64,000 nt of DNA from an uncultured Porphyromonadaceae bacterium (GTDB lineage: Bacteria > Bacteroidota > Bacteroidia > Bacteroidales > Muribaculaceae): contig CABUIC010000009.1 of NCBI GenBank assembly GCA_902491515.1, positions 486 to 64,485 of the forward strand. Reading direction: 5' to 3'. The position numbers and the translations under genes are program-made. Position 1 is the first letter of the stretch. Every line of letters starts with the position of its first letter. Below the pieces are notes generated by a model that was not told where the DNA came from, searched no databases, and was given only the letters and a program-made list of their open reading frames with translations. Shown piece after piece: positions 18 through 64,000 of this stretch.

Positions 18-1733
18 ATGAAGAAACTGATGCAGAGCGCGCTTCTTGCTGTTGCGGCGCTCGGGTTCAGCCAGCAGGCTCTGGCCGATACCACCATCTA
101 CTACGACAACTCCGCCAGCGGATGGTCCCAGGTCAATATCCACTACTGGGGCGGCCCCGAAACCTCATGGCCAGGCGTGGCAATGACCTCCTCCTCCGAG
201 AACATCTGGGAATTCACCTTCACCGACGCTTCCGGCATCTCGGGCTTCCTCTTCTGCAACGGCGACGGCTCCGACCAGACCGCCGACGTCTCCGGCAAAC
301 CCGCCGCAAACCACCTCTATAAAGGCGCCGGCGGCAAAGGCAAGGTCAGCGACGAAGGCGAGTACAACCCCGACCCCTCCCGTCCTGTCATCACCGCCGA
401 CCCCGCTTCGGGCACGAAGTTCATCGACAACGTTACAGTGACTCTCTCCGTATCCCCCGAAGCCAAGCTCTACTACACCACCGACGGCACTACGGCAACG
501 GCTTCCTCCACGCCCTACACTGCGCCCATCGTGCTGACCGAATCTACGACCATCTCGGTTTACGCCCTCACCGCCGACAACAAGGACAATGTGCGCTCCT
601 TCTCCTACACCAAGCGCCACACCATCCCCGTCGGCGCCAAGAACCTCATCACGGACTACTACAAGGTCAACCCCGACGGCAAGGTGGGCACACGCCGCAC
701 CGTCAATATGTCCTTCGCCAACCAGAAGTCGTCCACGGCCCTCTCCAACTGGTCTGACGCCGACCTCATCGCCCAGGGTGTTGCACGCGACGTCTGCATG
801 GCCATCAAGGGCACCCACGAGCGTCCAGTGATCGACTCCTACGCCATCTACGCCTCCTACGACAACGAAAACCTCTACCTCGGCGCACAGTTCGTCTACA
901 CCGTATGGGATCTCGGCGGCGAAGGCAAGCAGCCCGGCGAATCCAAGCCCTACAACATGGACGGCGCTCTGATCTGGGCCTTCGACCTCGACCCCGAGGA
1001 ATCCTTCGACGGCCGAATCAACGGTCAGGGCCCAATCTGGAACCAGGACAAGAAGGGTATGTTCTTCCAGAACGGCGTGGACGCCGTATGGATCGGCTCG
1101 ACCAAGCCCGGTGTGGGCCAGCCCGGTTTCTTCACCCCCACCCCCGACGGACACGCAAGCTACGACGCTCCCTACCTGAAGTCGATTCCCGGATCTTACT
1201 ACGGGTACGCCGACGGTCTCCTTCCCTCCATCGACCACATCTGGGGACAGGCCCGCTTCGGATATGATCCCGAGAACCTCCTCGGCAACGACGGATTCGC
1301 CGACCTCAAGGACGAAGTGGCTGAAACCGCCCACACCTTCTACGAATGGAAATTCCCCCTCTCCGTCCTCGGAGTCACCGCCGACTTCATCGCCAGCCAC
1401 GGCATCGGCGTGATGTACCTCGACCAGTACGGCACAAGCCCCGTAGGCGGCACTCCCTACGATCCCTCCTACTTCGACAATGTCTCCGAGTCCTATTCCG
1501 CCGACAAGTCGACCTCGATGGAGAAGGAAGACGACGACATCATCACCTTCGCTCCCGCTCGCATCGGCAAGCTCGGCCACTCCACCAGCGGCGTGGATGA
1601 GATTGCCATCGACAACGCCGGCGAAGCCGAGCCCGTGTTCTACACGCTCCAGGGCATCCGCGTGGCTGAGCCCACAACCGGTATCTACATCAAAGTCACC
1701 GGCAAAAAGGCTGAAAAAGTGATGGTTCGCTAA
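18..1733 (+). CDS. Secreted starch-binding protein: CBM26-like module (TIYYDN...WSQVNIHYWGG...WPGVAM), FN3/chitobiase-like domain, unknown domain, C-terminal T9SS sorting domain
   Basis: N-terminal signal peptide MKKLMQSALLAVAALGFSQQALA. CBM25/26-type motif. C-terminus YTLQGIRVAEPTTGIYIKV... closely parallels the C-termini of the 57425 and 24738 proteins (Por secretion tail). Terminator hairpin at 1774-1801. Confidence 0.6.
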   Translation: MKKLMQSALLAVAALGFSQQALADTTIYYDNSASGWSQVNIHYWGGPETSWPGVAMTSSSENIWEFTFTDASGISGFLFCNGDGSDQTADVSGKPAANHLYKGAGGKGKVSDEGEYNPDPSRPVITADPASGTKFIDNVTVTLSVSPEAKLYYTTDGTTATASSTPYTAPIVLTESTTISVYALTADNKDNVRSFSYTKRHTIPVGAKNLITDYYKVNPDGKVGTRRTVNMSFANQKSSTALSNWSDADLIAQGVARDVCMAIKGTHERPVIDSYAIYASYDNENLYLGAQFVYTVWDLGGEGKQPGESKPYNMDGALIWAFDLDPEESFDGRINGQGPIWNQDKKGMFFQNGVDAVWIGSTKPGVGQPGFFTPTPDGHASYDAPYLKSIPGSYYGYADGLLPSIDHIWGQARFGYDPENLLGNDGFADLKDEVAETAHTFYEWKFPLSVLGVTADFIASHGIGVMYLDQYGTSPVGGTPYDPSYFDNVSESYSADKSTSMEKEDDDIITFAPARIGKLGHSTSGVDEIAIDNAGEAEPVFYTLQGIRVAEPTTGIYIKVTGKKAEKVMVR

Positions 1734-22552: not shown

Positions 22553-24550
22553 TTATTTTCTGGCGAGGATGAGGGCCGAGGTCGGAGGCACCACTACGTT
22601 GCCGCCCTTGGAGGAGCCCATGCCTTCGCTCCTGAGGCTTCCGTCGCGGGCCACGACAATCCAGTCGCCCTTGGGAACCTTGGCAACGAAGGGGTCGGCG
22701 GAACCGTTGAAGACAAGCTTGATTTCCTTCCATTCGTCGCCGTTGGCGTTGTTGCGGATGGAGTAGCTTACGACGTTGGGGGCGTCGACCTTGTCGAAGA
22801 CTATGTTCTTGGCGATTTCCTCGGCCGTAGTCATGCGGAACGCGGGGTGGGCCTTGCGGAGGGCGATGAGTTCGCGGTAGTAGTCGAACTGTTCGGCATT
22901 TTTGTGTTTGAGGCTCCAGTCGATGGCGTTGATGCTGTCAGGGCTCTTGTAGGAGTTGTGGACGCCCTTCTTGTCGCGGAAGATTTCCTCGCCGGCAAAC
23001 ATGAAGGGTGTGCCCTGCGATGTGAAGACGATGGTCTGGGCGAGACGCGCGGCGCGCTGGCGCTCGGCCTCGGTGCTTCCGGGCATCGACTTGGCGAGCT
23101 TGTCCGTGAGGGTGAGGTCGTCGTGACAGGAAACGTAGTTGATGATCTGCGTGGGAGCTCCGGCATAAGGGAACTTGGAGTTGTTGCCCTTGGAGTAATC
23201 GACCTGGGGATGGGCGGTGGAGGCGACGATGCCGATTTTGACGGTCTCCTCGTTGCCGGGCTTCCCGGTTGCGAAGCCGCGGTCGGCGGCGTTGCTGTAG
23301 TGGCCCTTCACGGCGTCGCGGATGTCGTCGGAGAATACGGCGATACCCTTCATCTTGTCGACGTTCTCCTTGAGGGCGCGGCGCTCGACAGGCAGGGGAG
23401 AGTCGCCGGCGGTCCAGCCTTCGCCGTAGACGAAAATCGAGGGGTTGATTTTCTTGAGTTCGGCGGCCACCTGATTCATCGTCTCGGTGTCGTGGATTGC
23501 CATGAGGTCGAAACGGAAGCCGTCGATGTGGTATTCCTTGGCCCAGTACTTCACAGAGTTTACAATGAAGTCGCGCATCTGCTGGCGCTCGGAGGCCGTT
23601 TCGTTTCCGCAGCCCGAGGCGTCGCTGTAGGAGCCGTCGGGACGGTGGCGGTAGTAATAGCCGGGAGCGGTGAGGGAGAAGTTAGAGTCGTCGTTGTTGG
23701 CCGTGTGGTTATATACAACGTCCATGACCACGCCGATTCCAGCGTCGTGGAGAGCCTTGACCATCTCCTTCATCTCGCGGACACGGGCCTCGGGATTGGC
23801 GGGATCGGTGGAGTACGAGCCTTCGGGGATGTTGTAGTTGAAGGGATCATAGCCCCAGTTGTACTGGTTGGAGGGAAGGTTCGACTCGTCGACGGAATTG
23901 TAGTCGTAGCTCGGAAGGATATGGACGTGGGTCACGCCGAGTTCCTTGAGATGGTCGATGCCGGTCTTGTCGCCGAGGATGCTGCGGGTCTCGGGCTCTG
24001 TGAGGGCGAGGAACTTGCCCTTATGGACGATTCCGGAGGAGGGGTGTACGCTGAAGTCGCGGTGGTGCATCTCGTAGAGAACGGCATCGGTGATGCTCTT
24101 GAGCTCGGGGCCTTTGTCGGCGCTCCACCCTTCGGGATCGGTCTTGGCGAAGTCGATGATGGCTGCACGATGGCCGTTGGTACCAGTGGCCTTCGCCCAT
24201 ACGCCCGGAGTTTCGGCGAGGCGCTTGCCCGTGGCGTCGGTGATGCGGAAGGTATAGAACTTGCCGTAGAGGGGTCTGTCAACGGAAGCGCGCCAGACGC
24301 CGTTGTCGCCAAGACGCATCTCGAGGGAGTCGTATGGCGCGGTGTTGCGGTCCGTGTTGTAGAGATAGACAGTGGCGGCCTTAGCCTTTGGCGACCAGAG
24401 GGCGAAGTTCGTTCCCTTTGCATCGACAGTCATTTCAAGGTCTGTGCCTCCGTAAGCGGGCCATGAGGCGTATTCGGATTCCATGTTCTGTGAAAATACA
24501 GGAGCGGCGGCTACGAAAGTCAGCGCCGCCGCGCTGAGGAGTGTTTTCAT
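22553..24550 (-). CDS. pulA: Type I pullulanase (GH13_14)
   Basis: Signal peptide. GH13 conserved regions VVYNHT, GFRFDLM, YGEGW, YVSCHDDLTL. Confidence 0.8.
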   Translation of the reverse strand: MKTLLSAAALTFVAAAPVFSQNMESEYASWPAYGGTDLEMTVDAKGTNFALWSPKAKAATVYLYNTDRNTAPYDSLEMRLGDNGVWRASVDRPLYGKFYTFRITDATGKRLAETPGVWAKATGTNGHRAAIIDFAKTDPEGWSADKGPELKSITDAVLYEMHHRDFSVHPSSGIVHKGKFLALTEPETRSILGDKTGIDHLKELGVTHVHILPSYDYNSVDESNLPSNQYNWGYDPFNYNIPEGSYSTDPANPEARVREMKEMVKALHDAGIGVVMDVVYNHTANNDDSNFSLTAPGYYYRHRPDGSYSDASGCGNETASERQQMRDFIVNSVKYWAKEYHIDGFRFDLMAIHDTETMNQVAAELKKINPSIFVYGEGWTAGDSPLPVERRALKENVDKMKGIAVFSDDIRDAVKGHYSNAADRGFATGKPGNEETVKIGIVASTAHPQVDYSKGNNSKFPYAGAPTQIINYVSCHDDLTLTDKLAKSMPGSTEAERQRAARLAQTIVFTSQGTPFMFAGEEIFRDKKGVHNSYKSPDSINAIDWSLKHKNAEQFDYYRELIALRKAHPAFRMTTAEEIAKNIVFDKVDAPNVVSYSIRNNANGDEWKEIKLVFNGSADPFVAKVPKGDWIVVARDGSLRSEGMGSSKGGNVVVPPTSALILARK

Positions 24551-57424: not shown

Positions 57425-59803
57425 ATGAAAAAAGCAATTTTGGGTGCGGCTCTGCTGGCTTGCCTTTCCGCAGGAGCGCAGCAGCCTAAGATCTACATTG
57501 CCTTCCAATGGCACATGCACCAGCCGATCTACACCCCCGGCGAGACAGTTCTCGAAACCCACGAGGGAGGCTCCCTCAGCTACGACCTCCTCGACGTCTT
57601 CACATCACGCACCGGCGCCTACACCAACTGGCCCGCGCAGGCCGTCGACAAGCTCATTGCCGCAAATCTCCCCGGAGGCGCGCAGGTGTCCTTCTCCGGC
57701 TCCCTCGTCGAGAACCTCAACGTAATCGAGAAATCCACAAGCCACTTCCAGAACTGGAAAAAACACTGGACCGACTTCGTCTCCAAGAAAACCGACCTCG
57801 GCAACCAGCGAATCGACATGGTAGGCTTCGGCTACTACCATCCCCTCATGGCTCTCATCGACGAGGAGGACGCCCGCAAGCAGATTCAGAAACACCGCGA
57901 GTGCTTCGCCGAGAACTTCCCCGGCATGGCATATTCCAAAGGCATCTTCCCGCCTGAGAACGCCTTCGAGGAGCACATGATTCCCGCTCTCGTAAAAGAA
58001 GGCATCGAGTGGGCCATGGTCGACAACTCCCACTTCGACCGCACAGCCAAAAACTACCCCTGGGTAAAGGGCTTCTCCATGGTCGAGCCCAACAAGGCCG
58101 ACGTTCTCAACGATAATCCCGCCGACTGGACCCACATCGACGGACTCTACTGCCCCGGACAGATTTCCGCCGGATGGGGCCACCGGCCCCACTGGATGAA
58201 GTACGTCGACCCCACAGACGGACACGAGTACAAAATGATTGCCGTGCCCACCTCCCTCGTCTTCGGCAATGAGGACGGCCGCGGCGGCTTCGGCGCTCTC
58301 CAGTACGAGAAGTGCATCAGCCAGCTCGAGGCCTTCAACGACGACCCCGAACACCCCATCCTCGTTGTCCTCCACCACGACGGCGACAACCACGGCGGCG
58401 GCTCAGCAAGCTACTACGGCTCGAACTTCCAGAACTTCGTCGACTGGCTCAGGGCAAACCCCGACCGCTTCGAATGCACCACCATCCAGGACTACCTCGA
58501 CCGCTTCCCGCCCGAGGACAACGACATAATCCACGTCGAGAGCGGCAGCTGGTGGGGAGCCGGAGCTGACCCCGAATTCCTCAAGTGGAACGGCGACAAA
58601 GGCACATACGCCGGAGCTTCCGAGCCCTACAGCCCCGACCACAACAGCTGGGGAATCATCACCGCCGCCTCCAACCACGTGAAGACCGCCGCCGCCATTG
58701 CCCCCGACAATGCCGACGTCCGCGCCGCCTGGAACGAGCTCATGTGCGGCGAGACAAGCTGCTACTGGTACTGGGACGGCACCGAGGAATGGGACTCCAA
58801 GCCCGCCACCGCCGCTAACCTCGCTGTAGCCAAAGTAGCCTCCGTCCTCGCCTCCGGCGCCGACAAGACCGGCCCCTCCATCTACCATCCCCAGCGCGAA
58901 CCCTACAACCCCGGCGCCACCGAATGGGGAATCGTACAGTCCTCCGACTTCACCGTCTGGAGCTACGTCTACGACCTCAGCGGCCTCGCCTCCGTCAAGC
59001 TCAAGTACCGCCTCGACAAAGACGGCGTCAACCCCCTCGCCTCCAACCAGAACGAGACATACGCAGGCGGCGACGAAGTAGGCCCCTGGCAGGAAATCGA
59101 GATGACAGGCAAGACCATCGCTTCCATCACAAATCCCCTCCCCGCACACAAGGCTCAGGAATTCTCCGCAAAGGTCCAGGGAGTCAAGGACGCACTCGTC
59201 GACTACTACATCGAGGCAACCGACGCCAAAGGCAACGTAGCCCGTTCCCAGATTCTCCACGTATACGTAGGCAACGGCAACGGCTCCGATCCCATCGACC
59301 CGGAGGACCCCGACAAGCCCTCGGTACTCGGCTCATACACCGTATCCCCCGCACAGCCCACCGTGGACGACGTAATCACCATCACGGCCTCCAACGGCCG
59401 CGAAGGCATCATCCTCCACTGGGGTGTGAATAAATTCGAGAAACCCATCCAGGCATACCTCCCCGACGGTTCCACATACCATACCGACGGAAAAGCAGCC
59501 CGCACCCCCTTCACCCGCAATGCCGAAGGCAAATACGAAGTAAAGATCGGCCCCTTCAACAACCCCGAACAGGCCGTCAGCTACATCAGCTTCGTCACCA
59601 ACACCGGCAGCCAGTGGGACAACAACGGCGGAAGCGACTACCGCATCAACCTCAACCGCCCGACCGGCATTGACGCCGTAGAGGCTCCCGCCGACGCTCC
59701 CGCCGAATATTACACCCTCCAGGGCGTACGCGTCGACAGCCCCACCTCCGGCATCTACCTCTGCCGCAAAGGCGCCAAAGTCACGAAAGTAATCATCCGC
59801 TGA
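57425..59803 (+). CDS. GH57 family alpha-glucan-active enzyme with C-terminal beta-rich extension and T9SS sorting domain
   Basis: Signal peptide. GH57 N-terminal region IAFQWHMHQPIY...GFGYYHPLMALIDEED...GIFPPENAF...GIEWAMVD. C-terminus YYTLQGVRVDSPTSGIYLCRKGAKVTKVIIR parallels the 18..1733 protein. Confidence 0.65.
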   Translation: MKKAILGAALLACLSAGAQQPKIYIAFQWHMHQPIYTPGETVLETHEGGSLSYDLLDVFTSRTGAYTNWPAQAVDKLIAANLPGGAQVSFSGSLVENLNVIEKSTSHFQNWKKHWTDFVSKKTDLGNQRIDMVGFGYYHPLMALIDEEDARKQIQKHRECFAENFPGMAYSKGIFPPENAFEEHMIPALVKEGIEWAMVDNSHFDRTAKNYPWVKGFSMVEPNKADVLNDNPADWTHIDGLYCPGQISAGWGHRPHWMKYVDPTDGHEYKMIAVPTSLVFGNEDGRGGFGALQYEKCISQLEAFNDDPEHPILVVLHHDGDNHGGGSASYYGSNFQNFVDWLRANPDRFECTTIQDYLDRFPPEDNDIIHVESGSWWGAGADPEFLKWNGDKGTYAGASEPYSPDHNSWGIITAASNHVKTAAAIAPDNADVRAAWNELMCGETSCYWYWDGTEEWDSKPATAANLAVAKVASVLASGADKTGPSIYHPQREPYNPGATEWGIVQSSDFTVWSYVYDLSGLASVKLKYRLDKDGVNPLASNQNETYAGGDEVGPWQEIEMTGKTIASITNPLPAHKAQEFSAKVQGVKDALVDYYIEATDAKGNVARSQILHVYVGNGNGSDPIDPEDPDKPSVLGSYTVSPAQPTVDDVITITASNGREGIILHWGVNKFEKPIQAYLPDGSTYHTDGKAARTPFTRNAEGKYEVKIGPFNNPEQAVSYISFVTNTGSQWDNNGGSDYRINLNRPTGIDAVEAPADAPAEYYTLQGVRVDSPTSGIYLCRKGAKVTKVIIR

Positions 59804-60299: not shown

Positions 60300-60372
60300 G
60301 GTGCCATAGCTCAGTTGGTAGAGCAAAGGACTGAAAATCCTTGTGTCACTGGTTCGATTCCCGTTGGCACCA
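60300..60372 (+). tRNA. tRNA-Phe (anticodon GAA)
   Basis: GGTGCCATAGCTCAGTTGGTAGAGC...GGACTGAAAATCC...TGGCACC with perfect acceptor stem. Followed by hairpin terminator aaaagaccgctaa...ttagcggtctttt at 60375-60415. Confidence 0.85.
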
Positions 60373-60411
60373 CAAAAGACCGCTAATTCTCATAGAGTTA
60401 GCGGTCTTTTG

Positions 60412-60624
60412 TTTAATAGCTCATGGCAGAAAGGAGCTGTCGAAAATATCAACAAGTTAATAAGGCAATACATTCCTAAAAAATCTAACTTCAATGAATT
60501 TTCTGACCTTTATATCAAGAACGTGGCAAAGAAACTGAACCTCAGACCTCGTAAAAAACTCGGTTTTTCAAACCCAAAGACTGAGTTCTTCAAACAAATC
60601 GCTAATTTTGCACTTGCCAGTTGA
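60412..60624 (+). pseudogene. IS30-family transposase C-terminal fragment (about 68 aa) with no upstream catalytic region
   Basis: Translation ...SSWQKGAVENINKLIRQYIPKKSNFNEFSDLYIKNVAKKLNLRPRKKLGFSNPKTEFFKQ matches the conserved IS30 transposase C-terminus (SWQRG..EN.NGLLRQY.PK...LN.RPRK.LG..P.E.F). AT-rich (about 35% GC). Confidence 0.7.
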
Positions 60625-60680
60625 ACCTGCAGGGTACTTTTTTTGTCACAAAATCTTGCACTTTTCTCGATTTTATTTGT

Positions 60681-60688
60681 TAACTTTG
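60681..60688 (+). promoter_or_regulatory. -7 element TAACTTTG upstream of the GLUG-repeat protein gene
   Basis: TAnnTTTG match about 75 nt upstream of ATG 60762. Confidence 0.4.
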
Positions 60689-60761
60689 CGGTGTTTTTTT
60701 TACTTTTAGGCAATTAACCAACTTTTGTTTAACCTTCAAACCTTACTAATTACCATCCAAA

Positions 60762-62369
60762 ATGAAGAGAGGATTAATCCCAATCGCCTTGGGAATGCTC
60801 GCCGTGATGCCGGCCTATGCCGACGGCGATCAGGCGACGGTCACCTCGACGCCCTCGCCGATTGTATCGACCAAGGCTTTCGAAGTGAAAATCCAGACCT
60901 CCGATTTCGGACCAGACGTGTATTGCTACACCTGGGCAATCATCGGAGGCACTGAAAAAGAGGTCACTAACTGGGCCGGAAGCATCAACCCGAAGTTCAA
61001 AATGCAGGGCAGCGGCGGCACATACACCCTGAAAGTCGCTGACATCCAGGCCTTCTACAACCTTATGGACAGCGAACTCGAACAGCTCACGCGTCTTGGA
61101 TTCATCGCCCGTACCTCCGACGGCCGTCAGACAGCCAACTGCTTCGCCGAGGTGGTGCAGGGGCGCCGCAACGCCTATTCGGGCGGCGAAGGCACCCAGG
61201 AGTCGCCATTTATCCTCACCACCGCCGATGACCTCGCCGCGCTCGCAGCCACACCCGCCGACTGGGAGTCAGACGTATGGATGCGCCTCGACGCGGACAT
61301 CGCCCTCTCCTCATTCGCCGGAATCGGATCGAAAGGCAGCCCCTTCAAGGGCCACTTCGACGGCAACGGCCACGTCGTGAAGGGAGCCGTGATCTCAGGC
61401 GCCACGCTCGGCGGCGCCACAGGCTTCTTCAACGCCATCGACGGCGCCACAATCACCCGCCTCGGCCTCACCGGCGCCGAAGTCTCCGGCGTAACATTCA
61501 CCGGCGCGCTCGTCGGCTACGCCGCCTCCGGCTCGATAAGCCGCTGCTTCACAGCCGGAAAAGTTTCTGCCACGTCGATTTGCGTCGGCGGTCTGGTAGG
61601 CGAGAACCACGCCTCGATTTCCGACTGCTACTCGACCGCCACCGTCACCAACGTCACCGACTACGTGGCCGGGGGCCTCGTGGGCAAGAACAAAGGCACC
61701 GTGGCCAACTGCTATGCCTCGGGCAAAGTCGCGGCCTACAACTACGCCGGCGGACTCGTAGGCGCCAACTACGGCAACGTGGCGACCTCAACCAGCTTCA
61801 ACCCGCAGGTGAACATCAGCACCGGCAACTACGCCGGCCGCTTCGGCGGCAACGACAACCCTCGGAATTCCACCACGATGGTGCTGGGCTGGGCCGCCAT
61901 GAAATTGGACCTCACCGCCACGCACGGCCACAACGCCGACGGCCACTCGTATAGGTTCATCGACAAAGCCACCTACGCCGACGTGCTCGGTTGGGACTTC
62001 GACTCCGTCTGGGAGTGGAAAGTCGAAGGCCAGCACCAGTATCCCGTGCTGGCCGGCCTCGCCGGACAGACCGACCCTGGCCACAGCTCATTCTATGAAA
62101 CCGTGACCGGCATCGACATCATCGACACCGACAGCAACGCGCTCAGCGTCTTCCCCAATCCGGTGGGCGACATCCTGCATGTTGCCTCAGCCAAGGGAAT
62201 GACACGCATCGGTCTCTTCAATCTCAACGGTGTCACCGCCGGCATCGCCGAGCCCCGGGGAGCGGCCGACGCCGAAATCGACTGCTCAAGCCTCGAGAGC
62301 GGCATGTATCTGCTCGACGTCGCATTCTCCGACGGCTCGCACGCCGTCAAGAAAATCATCAAGAAATAA
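60762..62369 (+). CDS. Secreted GLUG-motif repeat protein with C-terminal T9SS sorting domain
   Basis: Signal peptide. Multiple G-L-x-G repeats (GGLVGEN, AGGLVGKN, AGGLVGAN). C-terminal FPNPVGDILHV...GMYLLDVAFSDGSHAVKKIIKK Por_Secre_tail-like. Confidence 0.6.
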   Translation: MKRGLIPIALGMLAVMPAYADGDQATVTSTPSPIVSTKAFEVKIQTSDFGPDVYCYTWAIIGGTEKEVTNWAGSINPKFKMQGSGGTYTLKVADIQAFYNLMDSELEQLTRLGFIARTSDGRQTANCFAEVVQGRRNAYSGGEGTQESPFILTTADDLAALAATPADWESDVWMRLDADIALSSFAGIGSKGSPFKGHFDGNGHVVKGAVISGATLGGATGFFNAIDGATITRLGLTGAEVSGVTFTGALVGYAASGSISRCFTAGKVSATSICVGGLVGENHASISDCYSTATVTNVTDYVAGGLVGKNKGTVANCYASGKVAAYNYAGGLVGANYGNVATSTSFNPQVNISTGNYAGRFGGNDNPRNSTTMVLGWAAMKLDLTATHGHNADGHSYRFIDKATYADVLGWDFDSVWEWKVEGQHQYPVLAGLAGQTDPGHSSFYETVTGIDIIDTDSNALSVFPNPVGDILHVASAKGMTRIGLFNLNGVTAGIAEPRGAADAEIDCSSLESGMYLLDVAFSDGSHAVKKIIKK

Positions 62370-62396
62370 CCGGTCTCCTTTTTAGAATCCACAGCA

Positions 62397-62880
62397 ATGA
62401 ATTTCCATAATATATCGCGCAGGCTCGGCGCTGCCCTGTCGGCTCTGCTGCTGGCAGGCACGCTGTCGGCCGCCGCAGCCGTCAATTCAGGCAACCCCGC
62501 CCTATCCGACCTCGAGATTAGGGCCAACGGCGTCAACCTCATCAACTTCGACCCGTCCACGACATCATATTCGATCGAGGTCGAGGATGTCTCGATGATC
62601 ACCCTCTCGGCCGCCCCTCAGGCCTCGGACGCCACCGTCGACATCACCGTCAACGGCCGGGCATACGACAACCACTCGCTCTCCTCGCTCGACGGCGGCG
62701 AGAACGTAATCGTCTACACCGTGAAGTCGGCCGGCTCCGAACGCGCCTACACCATCAACGTCAAGACACCCCTCGTGGTGCGCTCGGAGCATTTCAGCTG
62801 GAAGAACGCCACGATTTACTTCGTCATCACCGACCGCTTCTACAACGGCGACACCTCCAACGACAAGAGCTACCACCGCC
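62397..62880 (+). pseudogene. GH13 alpha-amylase N-terminal fragment (signal peptide, Ig/cadherin-like domain, start of catalytic domain), truncated by insertion of AT-rich foreign DNA
   Basis: ...FSWKNATIYFVITDRFYNGDTSNDKSYH is the canonical start of a GH13 catalytic domain. After about 62870 the reading frame runs into AT-rich sequence unrelated to amylase and ends at 63074. Confidence 0.6.
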
Positions 62881-62924
62881 AGCGCGGCGATAATTTTCGA
62901 CATCATATCAGTCAGTTAGGAATT

Positions 62925-62946
62925 GTTGGTCAACAGTTGGTCAACA
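62925..62946 (+). repeat. Tandem 11-bp direct repeat GTTGGTCAACA x2 at the insertion boundary
   Basis: Two perfect adjacent copies located about 45 bp inside the GC-to-AT transition. Confidence 0.6.
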
Positions 62947-63062
62947 AAATCGACGATTCGATGCTTGACTTGAAAATTCTCTCGCGGGCGGTGTCTAACT
63001 TGCAGTTATCCACGGCGTTATATGTTGTGGCTACATTCATATATTATCTGATGTTTGTTTTT

Positions 63063-63515
63063 TTACTTCTTTAATAGGTTAATTATCTCGTCCTTGTCGT
63101 GCAGGTTGGACTTCAACTGCTCGACATTATCTTTGAGACCGTTAATCTGGTCGCGCAAGTCCTTTTCAGTACCTTCCGCTTTTTCCAACTTTACTTTCAT
63201 CACTTCAAGTTGAGACAAGACTGCGGTCTCGCCGAGGCTATTGTTCGCATCTCCATCGCCCAACGCGACTGCCGAGAGGTAGGCGCTGATGTTGGTCGGG
63301 AACTGACAGAACAACGCGAAGAAATTGAAGTCAAGTGCTCGACTTATCTTCACCAGCTTCTTCGTCTCAATCGTCTCTCTTTCAAAGATTCGATTGACGT
63401 GCTGCTGAGGAACACCAATGAGACGACCAAACTCTGTCTTGGTCATCTTCAATGCGTCAAGGCGCTCTTTGATAGCCTTTCCGATGTGTACCTCTTTTAG
63501 TTCAATATTAAACAT
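63063..63515 (-). CDS. XRE-family helix-turn-helix transcriptional regulator with C-terminal coiled coil (mobile-element or phage repressor-like)
   Basis: HTH LKMTKTEFGRLIGVPQQHVNRIF, then a heptad-rich C-terminus. Low GC. Divergent from the small plus-strand ORFs downstream. Confidence 0.6.
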   Translation of the reverse strand: MFNIELKEVHIGKAIKERLDALKMTKTEFGRLIGVPQQHVNRIFERETIETKKLVKISRALDFNFFALFCQFPTNISAYLSAVALGDGDANNSLGETAVLSQLEVMKVKLEKAEGTEKDLRDQINGLKDNVEQLKSNLHDKDEIINLLKK

Positions 63516-63660
63516 TAAACAGTGAATAAATCTTAAAACGACAAACCATTTCTTGTTTAGATAAACATTAAATGGTTACTTTGCGTTCTCAAATTAAGCT
63601 AATATTCTGAGTGCAAAGTTAATCATTAATCATTAAACAAACAAATAAAACGGCACAAAA

Positions 63661-63852
63661 ATGACAAATACTGCTCAAAAAATCCGCCCGACTCTCTACG
63701 AGATGGCGGTTGGGGCAACGGTTCAGTTCCCCATAACTCGGCTAAAGAGTGTTCGCACACAGGCTTCTGAGCTTGGTATCATGTACGAACGCCAGTACAC
63801 GACCAGAACCGACCGCGAGGCTAAGATAATCGAGGTAACAAGAATTGCGTAA
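63661..63852 (+). CDS. Small hypothetical protein (63 aa) of the inserted element
   Basis: ORF in AT-rich foreign segment, divergent from the XRE regulator. No family recognised. Confidence 0.3.
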   Translation: MTNTAQKIRPTLYEMAVGATVQFPITRLKSVRTQASELGIMYERQYTTRTDREAKIIEVTRIA

Positions 63853-63863
63853 CCCTCTGGACT

Positions 63864-64000
63864 ATGGCATTTCTTCAATTCCTCGACCATCTCATCCCTT
63901 ACGACACCTTCCTCAACGATGTTGCGGCAAGGGTCGTAAAGATGTTGAAAACCGACAAGGACGACCCGGAATATGTTAGCCAAAGAAAGGCTTATGAGAT
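63864..64000 (+). CDS. Hypothetical protein, 5' partial at the window edge (MAFLQFLDHLIPYDTFLNDVAARVVKMLKTDKDDPEYVSQRKAYE...)
   Basis: ATG at 63864 and an open frame to the end of the window. Part of the foreign segment. Confidence 0.3.
   Translation, partial: MAFLQFLDHLIPYDTFLNDVAARVVKMLKTDKDDPEYVSQRKAYE

What the first reader, a model, noticed from the sequence alone, without database searches (positions are those of the whole stretch)
62397..64000. GH13 alpha-amylase gene truncated by insertion of an AT-rich foreign element with a repressor-like switch
The amylase frame is canonical up to ...FVITDRFYNGDTSNDKSYH at about 62866 and then runs into unrelated AT-rich sequence. That sequence carries a tandem GTTGGTCAACA x2 repeat at 62925-62946, a minus-strand XRE HTH protein with a coiled-coil tail, and divergent small plus-strand ORFs. 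This is the left end of an integrated element (prophage, mobilizable element or conjugative transposon) that has inactivated a starch-degrading enzyme. The rest of the element lies beyond the window.
Basis: partly seen in the sequence, partly recalled or inferred. Interest (0 to 1): 0.55.

Follow-up and report, generated by a model that had tools for sequence, protein, structure and literature searches.

The report
Prophage splitting a starch-degrading amylase gene
A temperate phage of about 65 kb has inserted at an off-target site inside a secreted alpha-amylase gene of a gut Muribaculaceae bacterium and cut it in two; this is a familiar kind of event, and both ends of it are documented here.

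Summary
Window 62397-62889 encodes residues 1-164 of a secreted MalS-like GH13 alpha-amylase, which is 873-876 aa with a C-terminal CBM26 when intact. At 62887-62889 the sequence switches to the left end of a temperate tailed phage, and GC falls from about 0.60 to 0.43.

An empty site in a 99.2%-identical relative (L030) has the gene intact. The missing 3' part lies beside the phage integrase at the other junction. One 69.8-kb IMG/VR contig, 100% identical to the window where they overlap, carries both junctions about 65 kb apart. attB, attL, attR and attP are exactly reciprocal around a 3-bp GCG.

This phage family normally integrates into the 3' end of ppdK and carries a replacement gene tail. 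The identical integrase protein sits at ppdK in other genomes. The amylase site is therefore a secondary site (22/43 identity, no identical run over 4 bp), which implies a heterology-tolerant, IntDOT-like tyrosine integrase.

GTTGGTCAACA x2 is most likely an arm-type integrase site. The XRE protein with its divergent early operon is a plausible immunity switch.

It is a new member of a known kind, of modest interest.

The parts
62397..62889 (+). 5' fragment of a secreted MalS-like GH13 alpha-amylase gene. It holds codons 1-164 of 873/876: signal peptide, Cadherin-like domain, and the first ~22 residues of the catalytic domain.
   Evidence: Cadherin-like hit in Pfam. 99.2% nt identity to L030, whose intact 876-aa ORF has PF00128 at 142-566 plus CBM26. 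PDB and NCBIfam matches are to MalS-type amylases.
62878..62900 (.). attL core-like region. The crossover is the shared GCG at 62887-62889. Host-specific bases are A62881 and G62886; phage-specific bases start at A62890.
   Evidence: Four-way comparison of attB (L030), attL (window), attR (L118/L031) and attP. The 23-nt attP core matches here with 2 mismatches and nowhere else in the window.
62890..64000 (.). Left (immunity) end of a ~65-kb temperate tailed prophage. The rest lies beyond the window.
   Evidence: 99.0-99.8% identical to the same phage end in L001-L010, which have unrelated flanks. Phage genes follow in L012/L133.
62890..63074 (+). Phage-derived out-of-context tail (61 codons, hydrophobic end) fused to the amylase fragment. 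Together they give the chimeric 225-aa ORF 62397-63074.
   Evidence: ORF list. The sequence right of 62889 is phage DNA.
62925..62946 (+). Tandem GTTGGTCAACA x2, 36-57 nt from the crossover. It is a putative arm-type integrase-binding site.
   Evidence: Exact tandem. The same motif TTGGT[CA]AAC occurs 3 times within 45 nt beside the integrase gene on the other arm and nowhere else in the 22 kb of L031. A different left arm paired with the same integrase (L122) has an analogous 11-nt tandem, ACTGTTTACAG x2.
62930..63040 (-). Conserved 36-aa ORF between the repressor gene and the phage end; function unknown.
   Evidence: Called as a gene in most phage copies. No family hit.
63063..63515 (-). XRE-family HTH protein (150 aa) and candidate lysogeny repressor. 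It has an N-terminal HTH_3 and a C-terminal helical or coiled-coil region, and no S24 peptidase domain.
   Evidence: Pfam HTH_3 E=9e-8. PHROG transcriptional repressor/regulator families. The identical protein is indexed in 118 blocks of the collection.
63516..63660 (.). Divergent control region. It holds 23-nt direct repeats at 63499-63521 and 63617-63639, a 16-nt inverted repeat at 63544-63577, and the Bacteroidota -7-like motif TAACTTTG on the minus strand at 63614-63621.
   Evidence: Repeat finder and motif scan. The operator and promoter roles are inferred, not shown.
63661..63852 (+). First gene of the divergent early operon (63 aa, no family). Beyond the window it is followed by 95-, 84- and 74-aa ORFs and a 1164-aa primase.
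   Evidence: ORFs. Gene order in L012/L133. Primase PHROG_6444 E=9e-85.
63864..64000 (+). Start of the 95-aa early ORF, cut by the window end.
   Evidence: The full ORF in L012 hits PHROG_17289 (unknown function).

Best explanation
A temperate tailed phage of Muribaculaceae, about 65 kb long, integrated by its own tyrosine integrase into a secondary (pseudo-att) site inside the coding sequence of a secreted GH13 alpha-amylase.

Shown:
- The gene is split after codon 164.
- The 5' fragment is fused to 61 phage codons (window 62397-63074).
- The 3' fragment (709 codons; longest ORF 669 aa) lies about 65 kb away beside the integrase gene, without its promoter or signal peptide.
- The phage's normal target is the 3' end of ppdK, and attP carries a copy of that gene's last codons (...AAQAAIED*) plus a terminator hairpin, so ppdK stays intact after canonical integration. 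No such compensation exists at the amylase site.
- The exchange happened at exactly the same attP position as at ppdK.
- Identity between attP and the amylase site is patchy: 22/43, with no identical run over 4 bp.

Inferred:
- The amylase is inactivated.
- The integrase tolerates mismatches in the overlap region, as IntDOT of CTnDOT does.
- GTTGGTCAACA x2 is an arm-type integrase site.
- The XRE protein, transcribed divergently from the early replication operon, maintains lysogeny.
- Int-mediated excision would restore an intact 873-aa ORF.
For: Empty site: L030 is 99.2% identical to window 60632-62889 and continues into an intact 876-aa amylase. L021, a sister lineage at 94.7%, is the same.

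attR: L031, L118, L119, L120 and L131 carry the integrase, then the core, then the amylase 3' part.

Reciprocity (amylase strand): attB ..CAGCGCG GCG GCAATC..; attL ..CAGCGCG GCG ATAATT..; attR ..CTGCGCC GCG GCAATC..; attP ..CTGCGCC GCG ATAATT..

One contig: IMGVR_UViG_3300029623_000526 (69,752 bp) holds both L130, which is 100% identical to window 60343-64000, and the attR junction L131. Run ERR911995 yields both an attL contig (L013) and an attR contig (L119).

Phage identity: primase, ArdA, head-maturation protease, tape measure and integrase. attP-type junctions of relatives occur in L006, L008 and L122.

Canonical site: integrases P0024, P0127, P0128 and P0248 lie directly downstream of ppdK in many different genomic backgrounds. 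The host flank of canonical attL copies carries the ppdK tail.

Same enzyme at both kinds of site: the identical 497-aa integrase P0248 is at ppdK in L121, L123, L124 and L126, and at the amylase in L120.

Other off-target insertions: L115 and L125.

In-silico excision gives an uninterrupted 873-aa ORF.

IntDOT precedent for recombination with mismatched overlap regions: PMC2817482.
Against: - No experimental or read-level evidence of integration, excision or induction.
- The exact attP of this phage was not found in IMG/VR.
- The integrase catalytic domain does not reach Pfam PF00589 at E<=0.1 and has no PDB relative by sequence. Its assignment rests on PF13102, PHROG_1 (E=2e-26) and database names.
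- The arm-site reading is weakened by L006 and L008. There the same left arm with GTTGGTCAACA x2 is paired with integrases whose int-proximal repeats are different (CTTACAC, TATAGAG).
- The 65-kb size is deduced from locus ends that coincide with gene boundaries, not read directly. About 45 kb of the element was not examined.
- Why the ppdK site was not used in this host is unknown, because ppdK of this genome was not recovered.
Confidence: 0.9

Rival explanations
1. Active lysogeny. The prophage acts as a reversible regulatory switch: it excises without killing the cell under some condition (for example when starch is available), restores the amylase, and later reintegrates.
For: Joining the two halves restores a clean 873-aa ORF with no decay mutation in either half. 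The identical lysogen allele recurs in several independent samples. Intact and interrupted alleles both exist at about 98-99% identity.
Against: The insertion is at an off-target site of a phage whose regular site is ppdK, so there is no sign of an evolved association. The exact restored protein is absent from about 15 billion sequences. The intact alleles seen (L030) differ by SNPs and so belong to other strains. Intact halves are equally expected for a recent insertion.
Confidence: 0.06
2. The amylase site is the regular (primary) attachment site of this particular integrase variant, not a secondary one.
For: The integrase beside the amylase is only 64% identical to that of L006 and has its own arm-repeat motif.
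Against: The very same 497-aa protein (P0248) sits downstream of ppdK in at least four other backgrounds. The attP it carries is a mimic of the ppdK 3' end, not of the amylase. Intact amylase alleles are common (one on 118 contigs), while the split allele is on 4-8 contigs.
Confidence: 0.02
3. The element is a conjugative transposon or an integrative mobilizable element, not a phage.
For: The integrase carries the PF13102 domain that is typical of Bacteroidota mobile-element integrases. ArdA is also common on conjugative elements.
Against: A head-maturation protease, a 1501-1539-aa tape-measure protein and phage-type primase modules are present. No relaxase or T4SS families appear in the ~30 kb examined.
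Confidence: 0.01
4. Assembly chimera, or a frameshifted pseudogene with no insertion.
For: The source is metagenomic. One short contig (P0004) does look chimeric.
Against: The same junction is 100% identical in contigs from ENA, Logan, JGI and NCBI. A reciprocal attR exists. No downstream frame encodes GH13.
Confidence: 0.01

Closest known systems
Secondary attachment-site lysogeny of lambdoid phages (lambda integrating into pseudo-attB sites and inactivating genes; from established knowledge, Shimada, Weisberg and Gottesman 1972)
   Same: A site-specific integrase uses a sequence with partial similarity to the normal core. The crossover is at the normal attP position, and the target gene is disrupted.
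   Different: The host is Bacteroidota. The integrase is of the PF13102-containing type. Identity around the crossover is much lower (no run over 4 bp) than lambda Int, with its 7-bp identical overlap, would normally accept.
IntDOT of the Bacteroides conjugative transposon CTnDOT (PMC2817482)
   Same: A tyrosine recombinase of Bacteroidota with an arm-binding function. It needs identity only at the cleavage site and recombines substrates with mismatches in the overlap region, and it uses several attB sites. Here the exchange also starts at a shared GC(G), and a mismatch follows directly.
   Different: This enzyme belongs to a phage, has a clearly preferred site (the ppdK 3' end), and has not been tested biochemically. 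Sequence relatedness to IntDOT itself was not tested here.
Phages that integrate into the 3' end of a protein gene and carry a replacement end (phage 21 and e14 in icd of E. coli; from established knowledge)
   Same: At the canonical site, attP duplicates the last codons of ppdK (...AAQAAIED*) and a terminator hairpin, so the host gene stays functional.
   Different: The target gene is ppdK. In the window the phage missed that site, so the carried gene tail serves no purpose.
Gene-disrupting prophages that act as regulatory switches (Listeria phi10403S in comK; B. subtilis SPbeta in spsM and skin in sigK; from established knowledge)
   Same: A prophage sits inside an ORF, and precise excision would restore the gene.
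   Different: Those insertions are at the element's regular, evolved site and are conserved in the species. This one is a minority allele at an off-target site, with no evidence of regulated excision.

Membership tests
GH13 alpha-amylase (MalS-like, with CBM26) | Complete (beta/alpha)8 catalytic domain (PF00128) | tested here: not met
   The window ORF gives no PF00128 hit. It keeps only about 22 of the ~425 domain residues. The intact orthologue L030 has PF00128 at 142-566 (E=2e-33) and CBM26. The window ORF is therefore a truncated remnant, not a functional member.
GH13 alpha-amylase (MalS-like, with CBM26) | Orthology of the retained part to an intact amylase | tested here: met
   99.2% nt identity to L030 up to 62889. 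The intact protein matches R. bromii Amy4 and periplasmic alpha-amylase structures (E=1e-121 to 3e-124) and the NCBIfam PRK09505 alpha-amylase models.
Integrated temperate tailed phage | Virion and replication genes | tested here: met
   Head-maturation protease (PHROG_94, E=4e-25), tape measure (PHROG_25337, E=2e-32), primase (E=9e-85) and ArdA. Terminase, portal and major capsid were not identified: the ORFs after the protease have no family hits.
Integrated temperate tailed phage | Reciprocal attL/attR junctions, with a matching empty attB and an attP | tested here: met
   Both junctions are on one contig.
Integrated temperate tailed phage | Free or circular form; inducibility | tested here: inconclusive
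   attP-type junctions exist for close relatives (L006, L008, L122). The exact attP of this phage was not found in IMG/VR. Induction cannot be tested here.
Tyrosine recombinase / IntDOT-like integrase | Core-binding SAM-like domain | tested here: met
   PF13102, E=1e-6, residues 95-175.
Tyrosine recombinase / IntDOT-like integrase | Catalytic domain with the R-K-H-R-H/W-Y signature | tested here: inconclusive
   No PF00589 hit at E<=0.1 and no PDB relative. PHROG_1 'integrase' covers residues 10-410 (E=2e-26). Motifs resembling box II (YTFRHTWGT) and the Tyr region (HSHGL.VTRGYV) are visible by eye in the homologues L006 and L008. Sources name cluster members site-specific integrase.
Tyrosine recombinase / IntDOT-like integrase | Recombination despite heterology in the overlap region | tested here: met
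   attP and the amylase attB share no identical run over 4 bp around the crossover. Any 6-8-bp overlap must therefore contain at least one mismatch. This is an inference from the products, not biochemistry.
Tyrosine recombinase / IntDOT-like integrase | Arm-type repeats on both arms | tested here: inconclusive
   The motif TTGGT[CA]AAC occurs x2 on the left arm (window 62926, 62937) and x3 on the int-proximal arm (L031 9787, 9798, 9831). But L006 and L008 pair the same left arm with other int-proximal repeats. Binding is not testable here.
Conjugative transposon / integrative mobilizable element | Relaxase, coupling protein, T4SS or mobilization genes | tested here: not met
   None among the called genes of the ~30 kb examined. 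The middle ~35 kb was not examined.
CI/Cro-type lysogeny switch | HTH repressor gene divergent from the early lytic operon | tested here: met
   HTH_3 protein on the minus strand; a 63-aa ORF and the primase operon on the plus strand.
CI/Cro-type lysogeny switch | Operators in the intergenic region; a repressor inactivation mechanism | tested here: inconclusive
   Repeats at 63499-63521 / 63617-63639 and an inverted repeat at 63544-63577 are candidates only. No S24 peptidase domain was detected. No Cro-like family hit for the 63-aa ORF.
Phage regulatory switch (active lysogeny) | Precise excision restores the interrupted ORF | tested here: met
   The in-silico join gives an 873-aa ORF with a single terminal stop.
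Phage regulatory switch (active lysogeny) | Regulated, non-lytic, reversible excision; conserved association with the target gene | tested here: not met
   The association is not conserved: the regular site is ppdK. The restored allele was not found. Regulation is not testable here.

The most novel reading that the evidence does not exclude
The insertion is a functional, reversible switch. A heterology-tolerant phage integrase lets this Muribaculaceae lineage toggle a secreted starch-degrading amylase off and on through integration and precise excision, and the off-target lysogen persists across hosts because that toggling is useful.

A weaker version: this ppdK-targeting phage family, with its swappable integrase and arm-site modules, is a frequent insertional mutagen of carbohydrate-utilisation genes in gut Bacteroidales.
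Probability: 0.06. Interest if true: 0.6.

Novelty: new member of a known kind. Interest (0 to 1): 0.3.

Why it matters
It gives a complete example, resolved at both junctions, of a gut Muribaculaceae prophage knocking out a polysaccharide-degrading enzyme, which is a strain-level phenotype difference caused by a phage.

It also defines an abundant, uncultured phage family: its integrase relatives run to about 2,000 clusters. For that family it establishes the regular target (the ppdK 3' end), a carried replacement gene tail, interchangeable integrase and arm-repeat modules, and demonstrable off-target integration. These facts are useful for prophage boundary calling and for engineering Bacteroidales with phage integrases.

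It does not overturn anything known.

Tried and rejected
- IMG/VR search with the L006 integrase protein found no relative.
- Megablast of 10 kb of the phage against GenBank phages found no match, so no named relative is known.
- An exact search for the reconstructed attP in IMG/VR found nothing.
- The integrase has no PDB relative by sequence and no PF00589 hit.
I got round this through the listing of cluster members.
- I first suspected that a divergent integrase (64% identical to L006) explained the unusual site. This was rejected because the identical protein P0248 is at ppdK elsewhere.
- I looked for ppdK or a second core copy in the window, to ask whether the regular site is occupied. 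Neither is present, so the question stays open.
- Walking across the whole prophage stalled. The look-up of P0277 returned only a 1-kb contig, so about 35 kb in the middle remain unread.
- Literature searches for a described Muribaculaceae phage or a ppdK attB returned nothing relevant.
Full report
**What is in the window.** ORF 62397-63074 (225 aa) starts with a signal-peptide-like N-terminus and a Cadherin-like beta-sandwich domain (aa 36-123, E=2e-9). It then reads ...NATIYFVITDRFYNGDTSNDKSYHRQRG, the start of a GH13 catalytic domain. GC is 0.59-0.63 up to about 62850 and 0.36-0.49 from there to the window end. GTTGGTCAACA is exactly duplicated in tandem at 62925-62946. The minus-strand ORF 63063-63515 is an HTH_3/XRE protein (E=9e-8) with PHROG repressor/regulator hits. 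It faces a plus-strand 63-aa ORF (63661-63852) and the start of a 95-aa ORF. The description is therefore accurate. Only the breakpoint needs moving, from about 62866 to 62887-62889.

**The foreign DNA is a temperate phage.** The identical XRE protein is indexed in 118 blocks of the public collection. Window 62878-64000 is 99.0-99.8% identical to the same module in loci whose other flank is unrelated host DNA. Reading on from the XRE gene, the element encodes small early ORFs, a 1164-aa primase (PHROG_6444, E=9e-85), ArdA and a ClpP-type head-maturation protease (E=4e-25). At the far end it encodes a 1501-1539-aa tape-measure protein (E=2e-32), a 608-aa protein and a 497-aa integrase (PF13102; PHROG_1, E=2e-26). 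Contigs L006, L008 and L122 join the XRE end directly to the integrase end. These are attP-type junctions of circular or excised relatives. No conjugation genes were seen.

**The amylase is really interrupted, and both ends are recovered.**
- A GTDB genome scan found full-length homologues in Muribaculaceae. L021 (MGBC120460) is 94.7% identical to window 60640-62895 and has an intact 876-aa gene.
- A metagenome scan with the C-terminal 713 residues found L030. It is 99.2% identical to window 60632-62889 and continues into an intact 876-aa amylase: PF00128 at 142-566, CHB_HEX_C, CBM26; MalS- and Amy4-like.
- The same scan found L031, where the integrase gene is followed by the amylase sequence from codon 165 on.
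- The 669-aa 3'-fragment ORF (P0247) has the same source profile as the 225-aa 5' fragment (P0001). It occurs with the integrase in JGI 3300029623 (L118) and in run ERR911995 (L119). ERR911995 also yields the attL contig L013.
- IMGVR_UViG_3300029623_000526 (69,752 bp) contains both L130, 100% identical to window 60343-64000, and the attR junction L131.
- Both locus ends coincide with gene boundaries, so they are taken as the contig ends. That puts the two crossovers about 65.07 kb apart. This is an inference. It is supported by near-coincident attL coordinates in two independent assemblies (73,868 deduced for the JGI contig, 73,901 in ENA k119_26648).
- tblastn finds no GH13 continuation in any frame of the window.

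**The junctions** (amylase strand):

| site | left | shared | right |
|---|---|---|---|
| attB | TACCACCGCCAGCGCG | GCG | GCAATCTCCCCGAC |
| attL | TACCACCGCCAGCGCG | GCG | ATAATTTTCGACATC |
| attR | CAATCGCAGCCTGCGCC | GCG | GCAATCTCCCCGAC |
| attP | CAATCGCAGCCTGCGCC | GCG | ATAATTTTCGACATC |

The pattern is exactly reciprocal, with the crossover in GCG (window 62887-62889). attB and attP share 22 of 43 positions, and the longest identical run is 4 bp. Joining the attL-left and attR-right sequences gives an uninterrupted 873-aa ORF. Neither half has decayed, and precise excision would restore the gene. That exact protein is not in the 15-billion-sequence collection. Intact alleles of the cluster are common, one of them on 118 contigs, while the split allele is on 4-8 contigs.

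**This is a secondary site; the regular target is ppdK.**
- In the other integrated copies, the host flank beside the XRE end continues ...GCGGCGCAGGCxGCxATxGAxGAxTAA (AAQAAIED*) followed by a hairpin.
- Looking up integrases of this family (P0024, P0127, P0128, P0248) shows the gene directly downstream of a 904/905-aa pyruvate phosphate dikinase in many different neighbourhoods. That protein ends ...RVAAAQAAIED*.
- attP thus carries a copy of the ppdK 3' end plus terminator. This is the classical arrangement that keeps the target gene intact.
- The very same integrase protein (P0248, 100% aa identity) is at ppdK in L121, L123, L124 and L126, at the amylase in L120, and at a further unrelated site in L125. 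The 92%-identical P0127 is at ppdK in L116 and at an intergenic site in L115.
- In every case the host/phage switch is at the same attP position (...xGCG|GCxCAGGC).
- Off-target integration by the normal enzyme at the normal attP position is therefore the best explanation. It recurs in this phage group.
- Any 6-8-bp overlap region at the amylase site must contain mismatches, so the enzyme must tolerate heterology. This has been shown biochemically for IntDOT, which needs identity only at the cleavage site (PMC2817482). I infer that behaviour here from the products only.

**The tandem repeat.** TTGGT[CA]AAC occurs twice at 62926 and 62937, which is 36-57 nt from the crossover. It occurs three times within 45 nt just upstream of the integrase gene on the other arm (L031 9787, 9798, 9831), in the same orientation, and nowhere else in the 22 kb of L031. 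Int-proximal repeats covary with integrase type: CTTACAC x6 in L006, TATAGAG x4 in L008, CATACAC-type in L110. L122 has the same integrase with another left arm, and it carries an analogous 11-nt tandem (ACTGTTTACAG x2) at the equivalent place. I read the repeat as an arm-type integrase site, with confidence about 0.6. The caveat is that L006 and L008 keep this left arm with non-matching integrase modules, so it could instead bind an excision factor.

**The 'switch'.** The XRE gene and the early operon are divergent. Between them lie two 23-nt direct repeats abutting each gene start (63499-63521, 63617-63639), a 16-nt inverted repeat (63544-63577), and a Bacteroidota -7-like TAACTTTG on the XRE strand (63614-63621). 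A CI-like immunity function is the most likely role, but it is inferred. There is no S24 domain, and the 63-aa ORF has no family hit.

**Consequence.** The 5' fragment keeps the signal peptide and the Cadherin-like domain but only about 22 catalytic-domain residues. The 3' fragment lacks its promoter and signal peptide. Loss of this amylase is near certain, though untested. The window also encodes a CBM26 protein (18-1733), a pullulanase-type GH13 (22553-24550, minus strand) and a GH57 (57425-59803), so starch use is probably reduced rather than abolished.

**Why here rather than at ppdK?** This is unresolved. The host (GC 0.58-0.60) lies above the canonical hosts' flanks (0.43-0.56) and the phage (about 0.52). 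A diverged ppdK 3' end is therefore possible, as is prior occupancy of that site. ppdK of this genome was not recovered.

**Verdict.** The element is a prophage at a secondary att site that splits a GH13 amylase. It is a new member of a known kind and of modest interest. The only reading that would raise it, a reversible regulatory switch, has no positive evidence beyond the intact halves.

Noticed in passing
window 60300-60640: tRNA-Phe(GAA) at 60300-60373 is followed by an AT-rich stretch with a 93-aa ORF (60343-60624). That ORF matches only the last 46 positions of the IS30 transposase model (E=8e-16), so it is an IS30 remnant. Synteny with the closest relatives (L030, L021) starts only at 60632-60640, right after the remnant. 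The region upstream (GH57 and the rest) is arranged differently in those genomes, probably through an IS-mediated rearrangement or another insertion.
   Followed up: partly
L006 8593-8711: One attP-type contig has an extra ~118 bp with a second copy of the ppdK tail (GGCGCAGGCCGCGATAGAGGACTAA). It looks like host DNA picked up by an imprecise or secondary-site excision, or a trace of recombination between two prophages.
   Followed up: no
L006 8830-8915; L008 7850-7900; L110 5920-5985; L031 9778-9840: Integrase modules are exchanged among otherwise near-identical phages (64-78% aa identity). Each brings its own short repeat family beside int (CTTACAC, TATAGAG, CATACAC, TTGGTCAAC), while the core and the ppdK target stay the same.
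   Followed up: partly
L115 9674-9740; L125 3575-3740: There are two further off-target insertions of the same phage group. One is in an intergenic spot downstream of a Big_5 protein. The other is next to AAA_21 and DUF4134 genes, possibly inside a conjugative element. The host sides share a ..GC(N)GCG-like end with ppdK.
   Followed up: partly
L117 10001-12700: An integrase at ppdK is followed not by phage tail genes but by an rve transposase and host genes. It appears to be a decayed prophage remnant that still occupies the ppdK site.
   Followed up: no
proteins P0266 (706 aa) and P0265 (150 aa): In the sister lineage the same amylase is split in the PT-rich linker (..PPTPPTP) on several contigs. 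This is probably a frameshift in the repetitive linker that separates the CBM26 end from the enzyme.
   Followed up: no
protein P0004 (752-nt contig): The amylase N-terminus (residues 1-89) is fused to an ABC-transporter ATPase segment. This is probably a chimeric short contig.
   Followed up: no
window 18-1733, 22553-24550 (-), 57425-59803, 60762-62369: The window holds other glycan-related genes: a CBM26/CHB_HEX_C protein, a pullulanase-type GH13 with CBM48, a GH57 with an Ig-like starch-related domain, and a T9SS-sorted Glug-repeat protein just upstream of the amylase. The last pairing is conserved in relatives.
   Followed up: partly
whole window: The Bacteroidota -7 promoter motif TAnnTTTG occurs 33 times against 15 +/- 4 expected from shuffles.
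   Followed up: no
window 62565-62906 (-): A 113-aa antisense ORF starts with the phage's ATGATGTCGAAAATTATC (the 'MMSKII' head of the ppdK-tail mimic) and reads antisense through the amylase fragment. It is most likely a by-product of the junction and not a gene.
   Followed up: no
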